This document shows, piece by piece, positions 15,001 through 21,000 of a DNA stretch of 64,000 bases. Origin of the DNA: Hydrolagus affinis (taxonomy: Eukaryota); the NCBI GenBank assembly GCA_012026655.1, contig JAAILG010000301.1, forward strand, positions 1 through 64,000, written 5' to 3'. Made by a program: the position numbers. Position 1 is the stretch's first letter; each line of letters opens with the position of its first letter.

Positions 15001-18000
15001 TACAAAAGAGCTATATTTGAATGTGACTGTGATAACAAGGAATTCATTCTTAGTTTCCAATGTCTTTCACTAAAATGATCAGGTTTTTCCTGGCACTATT
15101 GATTTTATTGTGCATTCTTTTGCTTTTTAATTTATTAACATCAATTATCTTAGTGCACTATGGTCTTGTACTGATTCTAGTGAACAGAGAACTGAGCTGG
15201 TCGCTATGATCTTTAAATTATTAACATTGTGGTCACACCCGAGGTGTCCCAATCTTTTTCCCTCTCACATGCTTTAGTTGCACTGAGTCAAGCAAGTGAG
15301 CATGGAGGATAAGTCACTCGGAACTAGTATGAAAGACGATAGAAGAATGTTTACTGGTTGGCACATTCACATGAATGTACCTTTACAGGAATGTACATAT
15401 GTGAATATTTATCCATTTATTTTTAAACTAAATTGTTTCAGGAGATAACTGTTAAAAGCAGTCTTAGTTCTCCGTTTTGATGGTTCTTGAACAGATATAC
15501 TTGTAATAATTTCCCCCAAATTCTATGGATGTCACATTAGTCACTGTTTGGAAAAATAAATGTCAGATTTGAACAAAAAAGCTATACAGTACCTGTAATA
15601 AGGTGGTGTATCACTTTTTTTGCATGGTTTAGGTCCAGCTTCTTTATCCTGAAAATCCCCCCCTCCCCCATCCCTTCATGGTCCTCACAGGAATTTCACA
15701 ACCATTCTAGTTTACTCTTCAAATTAATGTCACATATAATAATTGATACAGGTGCCAAATATTATGGAATTTCTACTTGTGTGCCTTACTGTAACATCGT
15801 AAAATTAATCTCGTAGGCAAAAATATGATTTGTAATGTAGTTTTCCGTACTTTGTCGATGGACAAACCATTTCTTGGAGCACATGTATGCTTAAATCCAT
15901 TAGAGGCTGATTTCATTAACCCCAAAAGGGTAAACAGTATTAGTGTAGAATACATTGTACATCACCTATTCAATAGACATTTTCAGCTCTATTTGAGTTC
16001 CCAGCTAATGTTCCATCACAACCCATTTAAGGAATCTTGGTGCTTAATCCTTCCATTGGTCTAATTTTTTTTCAGTGCCTTGGGACATCCTCCTGACATG
16101 AAAGGCACTATACAAATGTAATTTTTTTTTAGCTTTAATTATCATTTGAATTATTAGTTTGAGGATTATTTGTGTGAAACATGGAATTCTTTAAACTGGC
16201 TTTTTCAAAGATGATCCAACAGCTTTCAAAGGCTGAACATCCTGAATATATTTTCTTATGTAAAACAACTTGGAATGAAAAAAAAGTGTACAGTATTGCC
16301 ATAATGCTAGAAATAAGTTATGGAGTAGGAAGAAAATATCTCCAGAAAACTCTAACCCAGAAAAGAGGATAATTGACTGACTGACGCAATACAGATTTTA
16401 TTCTAATTGCTGTATAGACGTAGTCAAGAACATAACTACTTTTTTTTTACTTTCACTTACCACCATTCCTGCTGAAATTCGGCCAATTCAGGGTAGGCCA
16501 GGGATCAAGCCTGTTTTTAGATGAGTGATACAAATGTAAAATAGGTAGATTTGAATGTGAATAATTACAAGAAATCAATTCTTAATTTCCCAATGTAGAT
16601 TGCCCTTTGTGCGGTTTCAAACCATATTATGCCATTAAGTGATCCTTCTGTGAATGATTTTCTGATGACTCGTAAATTTAATAAAGTAGTAATATTTTTA
16701 GTATTGTTTTACAGACAGTTGCTATATAGCTGGTAATAGAAATAAATCGAAGTTGTTGTTGTAGAAATAATGTCATCCTCAAATCGATTAACTTTAGAGT
16801 TTCATTTAGTTTCTTTTATTTCACATTACTTTCTTAATAATAATAATCCTTGCATTTGATATAGTGTCTTATCACGTCTTCTAGACGTCTCAAAGGGCTT
16901 CACAGAATTACTATAAAGTGAATTGACTATATTTGTGGGCAAAACGTGGCAGCCAATTGTGCACAGCAGTGTCCCCACAAACAGTTGTGGATTGAAGTGA
17001 CCAATTTTTTTTGAGGGATTATTATCAGGTGTGTGTGGAGTAAGAAAACTTGCCCAAGGGTTTGCCCTGACCTGACGGAAATCGAAACCCGGTCTCTTGC
17101 TTACAAGGCGAGCGCTCTTTTCATACTGTTTTCTTAAAAACATTAGCTGATCAGTACTGTATAGTTCCTGCAAGGAAAATAAATGGCGTAGAATGCATAT
17201 TTATTTAAGTTTGTAAAATTTTGTCTGGAGAAATTTGCTGGCAGAATTGTTTTGAGTGAAATTGCAACTTTGTTTTCTTCCTACCCAATATTGCATAGCT
17301 GAGATTGCAACAAGGCTTTAGCAGAGTTTACTAAGAGATTGGCCTGTTTTGGTGAATGGCCTGTTTTGGTGAAAGAACTATGACCTCTCTTTTATGCTTA
17401 CTCTCAAAAGCTTGGGAGATGTGGGAAGCAGCCCATGCTGGACTGTATTGCTTTGCATATGCAGGGATTTGATGCATCTAAGTGCTACTTGTAACAAATT
17501 CTAGCTTTGCAACAAAAATTGGATCACAGAGTTACCTCTTTATTTTTAACCAATGAACTTCTGTATTGCTGAGCAACATGGTTTTTTTTAAACTAACTTT
17601 AGGCTTTCTAATTACATTGTTTTTTTTATAATTGCACTGTTTTGATATGTAAAGCTTCAACTAGATTATTTTCTTGTTTTACTTTATTTAGACATTCAAG
17701 TCTGTAGTGGAAAAGACTGTGGTTCGTGTGTTCATTGCAATAGAATTCTTCGTGGATAAGCAGCTGATTTTTGTGACTGGGGATAGTGCCTTCCAGCTCT
17801 ACCAGGTAGGATAAACGATTGTGAAATTCAATTCTTCATGACTTATTTTTACTGCTTACAAATGTTATGTCTAATCAGTAATTGTCTAATGTTGTAATTG
17901 TCCTACCAAAGGCTAATGGCATAGAGCAAAAACGGGCCTTTTTTTAGTTCCAAACGCAGAAGATTTTCATGAAAACAAAATGATATTCCATTTTTTTTTG

Positions 18001-21000
18001 GTCATCTTACCTTTGTGGACTTTTATAATGTCCTCATCTTTGCAAACAACATCTGTAATGTCACAGTTTAGCCTGACTGTATCCTCACTCTAGGGCACAA
18101 ACACACCTACGTTAAAGTAAAAGTCACTAGATAACAATTTTGGTGATCTCCCCCACCATCCCACATTTACTATGTTATGTGAATGCTGAGACCAACAATT
18201 GTAGTGCCCTAACTGTTGCCTAGGTTGAAATCAGGTAAGTTAGTAATAGTCAAGATTCATATCTGTGATCTTTTAATTTGTGCGGCCTAGTAACCAAGGG
18301 TGCTTTTAGCCATGAGGCCATTATGGAGGGCTAAAAGTCAGCTCAGTGTAGTACAGGTAGACCATGCTTAACGTCGCCTTGGTTAACGTTTTTTCGTTAT
18401 TACGTTGCTGATACATGGGACGTTGCGACGTTTGCTATTACGTCGTTTGCCAGCGCATGGAAAGAGGGCACGACAGCGCCAGGACCTGGGAGTGAGCCAG
18501 GCCAGCAACGAGAGAGCAAGCCAGTCGGCAGCGAGTGAGACCAGCAAGTGAGTGAGACCAGCCAGGCCGGCAGCGAGTGAGACCAGCAGCGAGTGAGTGA
18601 GCTGGGCAGGCAGTCAGGGAGCGAGTGAGTGAGCCGTGGGGGCAGTCAGGGAGCAAGTATAATTTTTTAAAAGGAAATTTTAATGAAAAATGTCCAAAAG
18701 AACCTAACTCCAATTTTTACATTCATTCTTATGGGAAAAATGTATTCGCTTAACGTTGTTTCGCTTAAAGTCGCACTTTTCAAGAATCAAAGAACAATGT
18801 TAAGCGGGGTCTACCTGTACATGGTTTGCTTTTGCCAACAACAACAAAATTATATTTGTATAGCGCCTTTCACATTTGAAGGACAACCCAATGCGCGGAA
18901 TAAACAATATTTCGGACCCGAGCTGGGGGTAGAGATCGTGGAGGATAGGGTGGGGGGGAAATATTGGCCTCTTACTCTTAACAGCACAGCATGACATTGG
19001 CATACAGTGTTCCAAGCTGCCCAAACAGGTTGGTCTTCAATCTTCCATTAATTTTTTCATAACATTGGTGCACCTATTCACAGAAGGATCACTTAATGGC
19101 ATAATATGGTTTGAAACCACACAAAGGGCAGTCTACATTGGGAAATTAAGAATTGATTTCTTGTTATTATTCACATTCAAATCTACCTATTTTACATTTG
19201 TATCACTCATTTAAAAACAGGCTTGATCCCTGGCCTACCCTGAATTGGCTGAATTTCAGCAGGAATGGTGGTAAATGAGGTTTTAAAAAAAAGTAGCTGT
19301 GTTCTTGACTACGTCTATACAGCAATTAGAATAAAATCGGTCTGGTCTGTATTGCGTCAGTCAGTCAATTATCCTCTTTTCTGGGTTAGAGTTTTCTGGA
19401 GATATTTTCTTCCTACTCCATAACTAGATATAGGTATGATTGCTTTCATTCTTTGACAATGACAACAAATTGCATTTACATGGCGCTTTTTCATACCAGG
19501 AACAGTTGTTCATTCCGCATTTTTAAAGTTGCTGGAAAGTGCTTCTTGTTTTTCTCTCTCTGAACTGATTTTGGTCAGTCTGGCTGATCTATGATCATTG
19601 CATGAGCTATAAAGCCATGTTCTGAATTATTAACAATAATAATCCTTGTATTTGATAGAGCACTTTGTCACGTTGTTAAGATATCTCAAAGCCCTCAAAG
19701 TCAATCCACTTTATAATGTAAAGTGGATTAACTATTTTGTGGGCATTCTGCCCACAAATTAAAATTCATAATCTTGCATTTGATATAGTGCCTTATCACA
19801 ATGTCAATATCTCAGATAAAAGAAGATTACTGTATCAAACCCAGGCATTCTATTTTATATGCACTAGGGTGTACACTACCTTTTTTTTGATCTCTGGAGT
19901 TTTACCAATTCTGTATGTAACAGCTGGGAGTATCTTATCATTTGTAACAACTGCAATCTTCAGAAAGCAAGTGCCTAATTAGTTTGATGGATATATCTCA
20001 TTTAATTAAGGAAAGATAAATCTGCAAACCTGTTATTTTAATAGTAAAGCTATGAAACTGGTGGAATGATTGTCTGTTTACATTTCTAAAGGGAACTGAG
20101 TTTTGTTACATTTAGTGGAAAGGTTATGCATTTGAGTTGAGCAGGAGGTATTGAATTGGCTTCTAGCCAACAGAGCTGAAAGCCTGCCAAAAGGTAAAAG
20201 CGAAGGACAAAACAGACGTGATGGATTTTTTTTAAAAAAGAGTAAGATACATAATACAAACCACAACAGCAGTCGGTAACTCCTTCAATGGCTCTTTTAA
20301 AAGGGATTATTTCCAAAGTATTAATATGCTAAAATAAGATTTTATTTTGCAGTCAAACACAGTAAAAGCCCGTTTATCCGGCACCATGGGACCTGGCCAC
20401 TGCCAGTTAAAGTGCCTGCCGAATATTCGGGCGGCCTGCGGCTGCAAACCCACAACAAATTTTTTTTAAGTTCTTTTAACACACACCATACACACCAGAC
20501 TAAACAATAACAGATAATACGGAATATTGTATTGGTACTTATTGTTAAAACTACTCTCTTGCGCTTCTCACCTTTACTGATTGAGGTTTACAGTCCAGCG
20601 ATTCGTTTTTAAATGGAGGACGCCAAGTGGGTGAAAAAAACGGCAGCGTAATTTTAAAGTCTCGCAACTTTACTAGCAGCAAGCCAATAGCCCTAGACTC
20701 TGATAGCCCTAAACTCCGATAGCCCTAGATTCTACTAGCGGCAAACTGAAATACTGCATCTGCGCGACAATGTGGGTTATTGGCTAGCATTATCGGCTTG
20801 CCACTAGTATGGCTTTAAATTCACGCTCATTTTTTTCACCCGCTTGGCGTGCTCCATTTTAAAAAGAATCGCTGGACTATAAACCTCAACCGCATCATCA
20901 TGGCTTCAAGTGCAGCATCTACTAGTAAAGGTGAGAAGCACAAGAGAGTAGTTTTAACAGTAAGTACCAATACAATATTCTGTTATTATTTATGCATTTA

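What the first reader, a model, noticed from the sequence alone, without database searches (positions are those of the whole stretch)
16316..19425. Recent ~340-bp inverted duplication bracketing frame-symmetric exon 3
Seen: 16316-16655 and 19076-19425 are reverse complements. The first 80 nt are identical, there is one 9-nt indel, and identity is roughly 95% overall. They lie ~1.0 kb before and ~1.3 kb after the 114-nt phase 0/0 exon 3. The arms occur nowhere else in the window and show no TIR/TSD or poly-A signature. Established: long intronic inverted repeats promote exon skipping, back-splicing and ADAR editing. Inference: the pre-mRNA can loop out exon 3, giving an in-frame delta-38-aa isoform and/or a circRNA. 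At DNA level the arms could mediate inversion of the 2.4-kb loop. An opposed SINE pair (16836 -, 21297 +) also spans this exon.
Basis: partly seen in the sequence, partly recalled or inferred. Interest (0 to 1): 0.72.

Follow-up and report, generated by a model that had tools for sequence, protein, structure and literature searches.

The report
Young intronic inverted repeat around JMJD1C exon 3
Two near-identical 340-base stretches in opposite orientation really do flank a small exon of a chimaera fish's JMJD1C gene, but this exon is already skipped in annotated isoforms of many vertebrates, so the repeat is most likely an ordinary young intronic duplication.

Summary
16316-16655 and 19076-19425 are reverse complements: 93.7% over 350 columns, 9 substitutions, a 9-nt indel and one small complex indel, with the outer 80 nt identical. 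The gene is JMJD1C of a holocephalan. The best protein match is Callorhinchus milii at 89%, against about 46% for mammals, so the window is not human. Exon 3 (17692-17805) is real, 114 nt and phase 0/0.

One sub-claim is wrong. An 89-nt, 80-82% identical third copy lies at 14976-15063.

The arms show no transposon hallmarks and are far younger than any other repeat in the window. All three copies cluster within 4.5 kb. I favour a local inverted duplication over two insertions of an unclassified repeat. Genome-wide copy number could not be checked.

The arms are predicted to pair (333 of 340 bases). However, exon-2-to-exon-4 isoforms are annotated in nine protein records from skate, rays, sharks, primates and a bat. 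Skipping is therefore old and does not need this repeat. A 114-nt exon is a poor candidate for circularisation, and the arms lie more than 1 kb from the splice sites. No RNA data were available. Ordinary; low interest.

The parts
16316..16655 (+). Arm 1 of the inverted repeat (340 nt), in intron 2 of JMJD1C, 1036 nt upstream of exon 3
19076..19425 (-). Arm 2 of the inverted repeat (350 nt), reverse complement of arm 1, in intron 3, 1270 nt downstream of exon 3
19339..19347 (.).
17692..17805 (+). JMJD1C exon 3: 114 nt, 38 codons, phase 0/0. It encodes the middle of the PWWP_KDM3B domain
14976..15063 (+). Third, partial and older copy of arm positions 195-281 (80-82% identity), in intron 2 with the same orientation as arm 1
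16307..16317 (+). Left member of a 9-of-11 direct match that flanks the whole unit. The right member is at 19424-19434. It looks like a target-site duplication but is probably chance
19424..19434 (+). Right member of the 9-of-11 direct match
16837..17118 (-). tRNA-derived SINE copy inside the loop. It pairs better with SINEs in its own intron (11999-12276 at 79%, 13029-13316 at 78%) than with the copy across the exon
21310..21589 (+).
922..1086 (+). JMJD1C exon 2 (ends in phase 0, followed by GT)
28075..28182 (+). JMJD1C exon 4 (preceded by AG)

Best explanation
This is a genuine, evolutionarily young pair of inverted copies of a roughly 340-bp piece of intronic DNA. The copies sit in introns 2 and 3 of the JMJD1C gene of a chimaera (Holocephali), on either side of exon 3. 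The most likely origin is a local, DNA-level inverted duplication, with one arm copied from the other by template switching or repair synthesis. The copied stretch was a mosaic that already contained an older repeat fragment. Two independent transposon insertions are less likely.

In the pre-mRNA the arms can form a stem of about 340 bp that loops out 2.4 kb including exon 3. This pairing is predicted, not shown. The most likely consequence is little or none. Exon 3 is an ancient cassette exon whose skipping is annotated across vertebrates without this repeat. [quoted passage not shown] A 114-nt single-exon circle is unlikely.
For: Shown:
- The repeat and its sharp boundaries.
- It is the only repeat pair in the window above 90% identity. 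All 78 other self-matches listed are 65-89% identical.
- Neither arm on its own has a target-site duplication or terminal inverted repeats, and neither has a poly-A run at an end.
- The arm is divided by an internal T9/A8 run, and only the part on one side of it (positions 195-281) has the older third copy. This fits a mosaic.
- All three copies lie within 14976-19425 (4.45 kb of 64 kb). By my hand estimate this clustering has a probability of about 0.014 under uniform scatter. The SINE family, by contrast, is spread over about 13 places from 71 to 61430.
- The gene is JMJD1C of a holocephalan with a complete exon map.
- In the minimum-energy fold of 16116-19625, 333 of 340 arm-1 bases pair with arm 2. 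Duplex energy is -574.8 kcal/mol against -93.6 +/- 7.4 for 30 shuffles.
- Exon-2-to-exon-4 proteins: 5 of 120 cluster representatives and 4 of 60 chondrichthyan cluster members and representatives.

Inferred: the duplication mechanism and the neutral outcome.
Against: - The copy number of the arm in the rest of this genome is unknown, because no eukaryotic genome collection was on hand. A young interspersed family would explain the shared ends equally well.
- The third copy shows that at least part of the arm is repeated.
- The 9-of-11 direct match outside the unit is not explained by a simple duplication (0.2% of 20,000 random position pairs, with a statistic chosen after seeing it).
- No outgroup intron was available to show which arm is ancestral.
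- No RNA data were available, so a real effect on splicing cannot be excluded. The arms are the best-matched and least-contested complementary pair across the exon.
- None of the 7 Callorhinchus records carries the exon-3-less junction, so skipping in holocephalans is itself unshown.
Confidence: 0.5

Rival explanations
1. The arms are two independent insertions, in opposite orientation, of a young, unclassified short interspersed repeat of this genome. The 89-nt piece at 14976-15063 is then an old, decayed copy of the same family.
For: Both arms share both ends exactly, as full-length copies of a discrete element would. A third, older partial copy exists. The window is rich in interspersed repeats. 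Some element classes leave no clear target duplications (recalled, not tested).
Against: Neither arm has a target-site duplication, terminal inverted repeats, a terminal poly-A run or a tRNA-like head. By eye on the ends shown, there are no TG...CA ends and no 5'-TC/3'-CTRR ends set in A|T. Only 3 copies were found in 64 kb, all within 4.45 kb. Two copies differing by about 3% in substitutions, while every other repeat pair in the window is 65-89% identical, would need a very recent burst that hit the same 3 kb twice.
Confidence: 0.3
2. The inverted repeat is functional in cis. Its stem makes exon 3 skip, or back-splice into a 114-nt circle, more often than in relatives. It thereby tunes the amount of JMJD1C with an intact PWWP-like domain.
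For: The pair is strong, predicted to form and uncontested within its own introns. Exon 3 is frame-symmetric, and its skipped form is a naturally annotated isoform elsewhere. Opposed intronic repeats can change splicing and promote circles (abstract and section 11 of PMC2533698; abstract in the listing and passages of PMC4201285).
Against: Skipping is annotated in lineages from skates to primates, so it does not require this repeat. The arms are 1036 and 1270 nt from the splice sites, whereas the tested Alu effect was lost beyond about 68 nt. Exons of 400 nt or less circularised poorly or not at all in the ZKSCAN1 system. The exon has a long pyrimidine tract and a CAG|GTAGGA donor. No RNA evidence was seen.
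Confidence: 0.12
3. The whole 3.1-kb unit is one DNA transposon with roughly 338-bp terminal inverted repeats and an 11-bp target-site duplication (Mutator-like or foldback-like).
For: Long terminal inverted repeats are present. A 9-of-11 direct match (16307-16317 / 19424-19434) abuts them. That match was reached by only 0.2% of 20,000 random position pairs at the same spacing, under a statistic chosen after the fact.
Against: The interior holds the only copy in the window of exon 3, in its right order and orientation. That exon is conserved in 102 of 120 JMJD1C proteins from sharks to mammals, so the interior is older than any such element. Two mismatches in 11 is far more divergence than the arms' roughly 3%. 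No transposase frame lies inside.
Confidence: 0.03
4. The repeat is an assembly artefact (a fold-back or chimeric join).
For: Inverted duplications can arise from fold-back reads (recalled, not tested).
Against: The arms differ by 9 substitutions and two indels. They are separated by 2420 nt of unique sequence that contains a correctly oriented, conserved exon. The window has no N.
Confidence: 0.02

Closest known systems
Intronic complementary sequences (opposed Alu pairs and other reverse-complementary matches) that flank circularised or skipped exons in animals
   Same: There are two inverted copies of about Alu length, one in each intron flanking an exon. They are predicted to pair across the exon, and the arms have no better partner inside their own introns.
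   Different: The arms are not a recognisable SINE or other transposon. The enclosed exon is only 114 nt, whereas short exons circularised poorly in the tested system. No back-splice evidence was available.
Opposed intronic Alu pair regulating RABL5 exon 3 (Lev-Maor et al. 2008, PMC2533698; abstract and section 11 read)
   Same: Base-pairing of two opposed intronic repeats is proposed to shift an exon from constitutive to alternative splicing.
   Different: In that case both Alus lie in the upstream intron, with the nearer one 24 nt from the exon, and the effect was lost with spacers above about 68 nt. Here the arms lie in different introns, 1.0 and 1.3 kb from the exon, and the exon is already alternative in distant relatives.
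Small local inverted duplications made by replication template switching or repair synthesis (recalled class, not tested against examples)
   Same: There are two copies only, close together, in inverted orientation with sharp ends. They lack transposon hallmarks, and the duplicated piece looks like a mosaic.
   Different: The ancestral state is unknown, so the junctions cannot be read for microhomology. A third, older partial copy lies nearby.
DNA transposons with long terminal inverted repeats (Mutator-like, foldback elements)
   Same: Inverted termini of about 340 bp and a target-duplication-like 9-of-11 match outside them.
   Different: The interior carries a conserved host exon and no transposase.

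Membership tests
circRNA-promoting intronic complementary sequences | Reverse-complementary sequences in both introns flanking the exon(s) | tested here: met
   340/350-nt arms, 93.7% identical, in introns 2 and 3
circRNA-promoting intronic complementary sequences | Pairing across the exon is favoured over pairing within one intron | tested here: met
   The arms have no inverted partner within their own introns. The only other copy (14976-15063) has the orientation of arm 1. In the minimum-energy fold, 333 of 340 arm-1 bases pair with arm 2
circRNA-promoting intronic complementary sequences | The exon is long enough to circularise efficiently | tested here: not met
   The exon is 114 nt. ZKSCAN1 exons of 400 nt or less circularised poorly or not at all (PMC4201285 passages)
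circRNA-promoting intronic complementary sequences | Back-splice junction reads (17805->17692) | not testable with these tools
   No RNA data for this organism
Repeat-induced exon skipping (Alu-pair type) | Repeat close to the regulated exon (tens of nt in the tested case) | tested here: not met
   The arms are 1036 and 1270 nt from the exon. The effect was lost beyond about 68 nt in RABL5
Repeat-induced exon skipping (Alu-pair type) | Exon alternative only where the repeats are present | tested here: not met
   Exon-2-to-exon-4 proteins are annotated in 9 records from skate, rays, sharks, primates and a bat. Whether those species have flanking repeats was not tested
ADAR substrate (long intramolecular dsRNA) | Long, nearly perfect duplex within one transcript | tested here: met
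   Predicted stem of about 340 bp on the sense transcript
ADAR substrate (long intramolecular dsRNA) | Clustered A-to-G differences between RNA and DNA | not testable with these tools
   No RNA data
SINE | Pol III head (tRNA/7SL/5S-like), A-rich or simple-repeat tail at the end, flanking target duplication | tested here: not met
   No Rfam or ARAGORN hit in the arms. No terminal tail. No duplication around either arm
MITE / TIR DNA transposon (each arm as one element) | Terminal inverted repeats and a target-site duplication | tested here: not met
   Arm ends are not complementary to each other (by eye on the sequence) and there is no flanking duplication
Long-TIR DNA transposon (whole 3.1-kb unit) | TIRs, a target-site duplication and an interior that is element-derived | tested here: not met
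   TIRs are present and a 9-of-11 flank match exists, but the interior holds a conserved host exon and no transposase frame
Local (segmental) inverted duplication | Low copy number, copies clustered, no mobile-element hallmarks | tested here: inconclusive
   Met within the window. Genome-wide copy number could not be tested
JMJD1C / KDM3C gene (host gene) | Ordered exons matching a JMJD1C protein over its length; PWWP_KDM3B, Tudor_KDM3B and JmjC domains in the relative | tested here: met
   23 tblastn segments cover residues 25-2409 of Callorhinchus JMJD1C in order. Best hits are all JMJD1C

The most novel reading that the evidence does not exclude
A lineage-specific, non-transposon inverted duplication has been placed around an ancient cassette exon that encodes the core of the JMJD1C PWWP-like domain. 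It now raises skipping of that exon in this chimaera. Alternatively, by recombination between the arms, it flips the exon in some individuals and so enforces the naturally occurring 38-residue-shorter isoform. Either would be a natural example of how a new RNA or DNA structure re-tunes an old splicing choice in a chromatin regulator.
Probability: 0.08. Interest if true: 0.4.

Novelty: new member of a known kind. Interest (0 to 1): 0.2.

Why it matters
If the stem did alter exon 3 use, it would be a clean natural experiment outside mammals. It would show a non-Alu intronic inverted repeat acting on a conserved cassette exon of a histone-demethylase-family gene. As it stands, the value is mostly in annotation. 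The window is a compact holocephalan JMJD1C locus. Exon 3 behaves as an old alternative exon. The repeat is one more intronic inverted pair whose effect is unproven and probably small.

Tried and rejected
- Rfam on the whole window (gathering thresholds) and on 15800-19900 (E up to 1). Nothing fell in the arms. The only local match, Plasmid_RNAIII at 26 bits against a gathering score of 60, is chance.
- ARAGORN found no tRNA-like head in the arms.
- An nhmmer profile of the two arms against the window found no copies beyond the three known. Four further rows had E 0.36-9.1 and I treat them as chance.
- A target-site duplication search around each arm singly found nothing better than 5 of 7.
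- Helitron-type and LTR-type ends were checked by eye on the sequence. They do not fit in both copies.
- Gene conversion as the cause of the identical outer 80 nt: with about 4% differences elsewhere, an 80-nt clean stretch has a chance of about 4% at any one place (hand estimate). This is not compelling.
- Single long-TIR transposon: rejected because of the conserved exon inside.
- A literature search for a JMJD1C circular RNA listed only reviews. I saw the listing only and opened none of them, so it gives no evidence either way.
- Not done because no suitable collection was on hand: copy number of the arm in this or any eukaryotic genome, and the orthologous introns of Callorhinchus.
- The exons were searched and compared one by one.
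Full report
**What is in the sequence**

The window has no N and no soft-masking. The repeat finder on 15500-20500 reports three collinear inverted segments that together make one repeat:
- 16316-16395 with 19346-19425: 80 nt, 100% complementary
- 16391-16447 with 19285-19341: 57 nt, 95%
- 16440-16655 with 19076-19291: 216 nt, 95%

blastn joins them into one alignment of 350 columns at 93.7% identity with 10 gap columns, E 6e-154. 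A global alignment with 60-nt flanks shows 9 substitutions. It also shows a 9-nt stretch present only in arm 2 (19339-19347) and a small complex indel beside the T-run at 16448-16452. Similarity ends abruptly at both ends. The longest identical tracts are 80, 45, 43, 38, 37 and 33 nt.

**The host gene and organism**

Stop-to-stop frames across the window read like a KDM3-type demethylase. I searched one long open exon on its own (35891-38107, 738 aa) against the protein collection.
- Best hit: JMJD1C of Callorhinchus milii at 89% identity.
- Sharks and rays: 50-68%.
- Mammals, primates included: about 46%.

The window therefore comes from a holocephalan related to, but not the same as, the elephant shark. 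It is not human.

tblastn of that Callorhinchus protein against the window gives 23 ordered segments covering residues 25-2409. These include exon 2 at 922-1086, exon 3 at 17692-17805 (residues 80-117, 87% identity) and exon 4 from about 28075. Splice borders are canonical...TTG|GTGAGT after exon 2, a long pyrimidine tract and AG before exon 3, CAG|GTAGGA after it, and AG before exon 4. Exon 3 is 114 nt, 38 codons, phase 0/0. Intron 2 is 16,605 nt and intron 3 is 10,269 nt. The arms lie 1036 nt upstream and 1270 nt downstream of the exon, with 2420 nt between them.

Exons were compared one at a time. I did not build or search a joined coding sequence.

The arms are not unique in the window. 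A stretch at 14976-15063 has the same orientation as arm 1.
- It matches arm 1 positions 195-281 at 80% (71 of 89).
- It matches arm 2 at 82%, with E 1e-15 to 3e-18.
- A profile of both arms finds it at E 1.5e-12 and finds nothing else credible; the four remaining rows have E 0.36-9.1.

However, that SINE matches copies in its own intron better: 11999-12276 at 79% and 13029-13316 at 78%. Its pairing across the exon is therefore contested, whereas that of the arms is not.

**What the arms are**

They carry no Rfam family and no tRNA-like head. Neither arm on its own has a flanking target duplication; the best is 5 of 7. Their ends are not inverted repeats of each other, they lack a terminal A-tail, and by eye they fit neither LTR nor Helitron termini in both copies.

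An internal T9/A8 run divides each arm. Only the part on one side of it has the older third copy. This suggests that the duplicated piece was itself a mosaic containing an old repeat fragment.

In the self-comparison of the window, this is the only pair above 90% identity. The other 78 pairs listed are 65-89% identical, and the SINE family is scattered over about 13 places from 71 to 61430. All three copies of the arm sequence lie within 4.45 kb. Under uniform scatter in 64 kb I estimate a probability of about 0.014 for that (hand calculation).

Taken together, I favour a local inverted duplication of intronic DNA (confidence about 0.5) over two hits by a young unclassified interspersed repeat (about 0.3). 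The deciding datum is the copy number of the arm in the rest of the genome, which could not be obtained.

**An unexplained detail**

Just outside the unit, 16307-16317 and 19424-19434 are direct repeats matching at 9 of 11 positions, after trimming 2 nt from each arm. Only 0.2% of 20,000 random position pairs at the same spacing reached the criterion, which I set after seeing the match. That looks like the target duplication of a long-TIR transposon.

I reject that reading for three reasons.
- The interior contains the only exon 3 in the window, correctly placed and oriented.
- That exon is found in 102 of 120 JMJD1C proteins from sharks to mammals.
- Two mismatches in 11 do not fit arms that differ by about 3%.

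**What the repeat could do**

As RNA, the arms are predicted to pair.
- In the minimum-energy fold of 16116-19625, 333 of 340 arm-1 bases pair with arm 2 and none pair elsewhere.
- The duplex energy is -574.8 kcal/mol, against -93.6 +/- 7.4 for 30 shuffles and -343.4 for the SINE pair.

These are thermodynamic predictions on isolated RNA, not evidence of folding in vivo.

**The key finding from relatives**

Of the 120 JMJD1C proteins returned:
- 101 contain exon 2 and 102 contain exon 3.
- 95 contain both, and in 94 of these the two are adjacent.
- 6 contain exon 2 but not exon 3.
- 7 contain exon 3 but not exon 2.
- 12 contain neither.

Five of the six with exon 2 but no exon 3 join exon 2 directly to exon 4. 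They are Amblyraja radiata X2, Chiloscyllium punctatum X2, Daubentonia 'isoform e', Carlito syrichta X2 and Pteronotus X3. The sixth, from Macaca fascicularis, joins exon 2 to a much later exon.

I then examined 60 chondrichthyan cluster members and representatives, leaving out one unnamed record.
- Four more show the same junction: Heterodontus X4, Mustelus X3 and two Mobula records.
- 33 have exons 2, 3 and 4.
- 16 lack all three.
- 7 have other patterns.
- None of the 7 Callorhinchus records has the junction: 4 carry exons 2-3-4 and 3 lack all three.

These are annotation models whose transcript support I could not see. They do show that the isoform shorter by 38 residues is widely predicted, from skates to primates. 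Exon 3 is therefore best seen as an old cassette exon whose skipping does not need this repeat.

Pfam places exon 3 in the middle of the PWWP_KDM3B domain (residues 49-147 of the Callorhinchus protein). In the skate isoform without it, only profile positions 1-29 of 98 still match. Skipping therefore breaks that domain.

**Comparison with what is known**

Opposed intronic repeats can promote circular RNA and alter splicing.
- Liang and Wilusz 2014 (PMC4201285): I saw the start of the abstract in the search listing and read passages. It reports that 30-40-nt repeats suffice, but also that ZKSCAN1 exons of 400 nt or less circularised poorly or not at all.
- Lev-Maor et al. 2008 (PMC2533698), abstract and section 11 read. 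It reports that a pair of opposed Alus shifted an exon to alternative splicing. The effect was lost when more than about 68 nt were placed between the nearer Alu and the exon.

Here the exon is 114 nt and the arms are more than 1 kb away. The structure resembles these systems in kind. Two tested features argue against a strong effect, and the defining read-outs (junction reads, editing) are untestable here.

A search for a JMJD1C circular RNA returned only reviews. I saw the listing alone and draw nothing from it.

Recombination between the arms could in principle invert the loop. This is an inference with no data.

**Verdict**

The stem is plausible and the shorter isoform is real in relatives, but the causal link is unsupported and, for the circle, unlikely. 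This is a new instance of a known kind of feature, most likely neutral. Interest 0.2.

Noticed in passing
window 18351-18820: A MITE-like element of about 470 bp lies inside the loop. It has 22-nt terminal inverted repeats (91% complementary), apparently set in TA. It contains a G+C-rich run of degenerate 17-32-nt tandem units at 18512-18651.
   Followed up: partly
window 71-254, 11678-11788, 11970-12280, 13001-13316, 16835-17118, 19627-19745, 21298-21607, 23552-23665, 30516-30751, 33313-33495, 46960-47086, 48253-48567, 61161-61430: A tRNA-derived SINE family occupies about 13 places, with copies 69-89% identical. Three heads still score as tRNA in Rfam (11979, 13009, 48262), and ARAGORN reads two of them as Val(tac) and Ala(tgc).
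   Followed up: partly
window 20355-21105 and 42728-43449: The longest repeat pair in the window is 767 columns, 81.6% identical and inverted. It sits in two different JMJD1C introns, with further fragments near 35171-35331, 51219-51294 and 58363-58536. The family is unknown, and Pfam finds nothing in its 117-aa frame.
   Followed up: partly
window 41300-41869 (+): An open frame in a JMJD1C intron matches the endonuclease of non-LTR retrotransposons (Exo_endo_phos_2, E 2.8e-11). It is a LINE fragment.
   Followed up: partly
window 59779-60558 (-): A large exon of NRBF2 (Pfam NRBF2, E 3e-60, plus the end of its MIT domain) lies on the opposite strand, convergent with the 3' end of JMJD1C (last coding match 54588-54698).
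   Followed up: partly
window 18836-18948, 51713-51776, 63645-63759: Another short repeat family (76-83% identical) has one copy directly beside arm 2 on its inner side.
   Followed up: no
protein P0054 (Macaca fascicularis record): One primate JMJD1C record joins exon 2 to a much later exon, skipping the whole PWWP/Tudor region. Three Callorhinchus records and 13 other chondrichthyan records lack exons 2-4 altogether, which suggests alternative N-termini.
   Followed up: no
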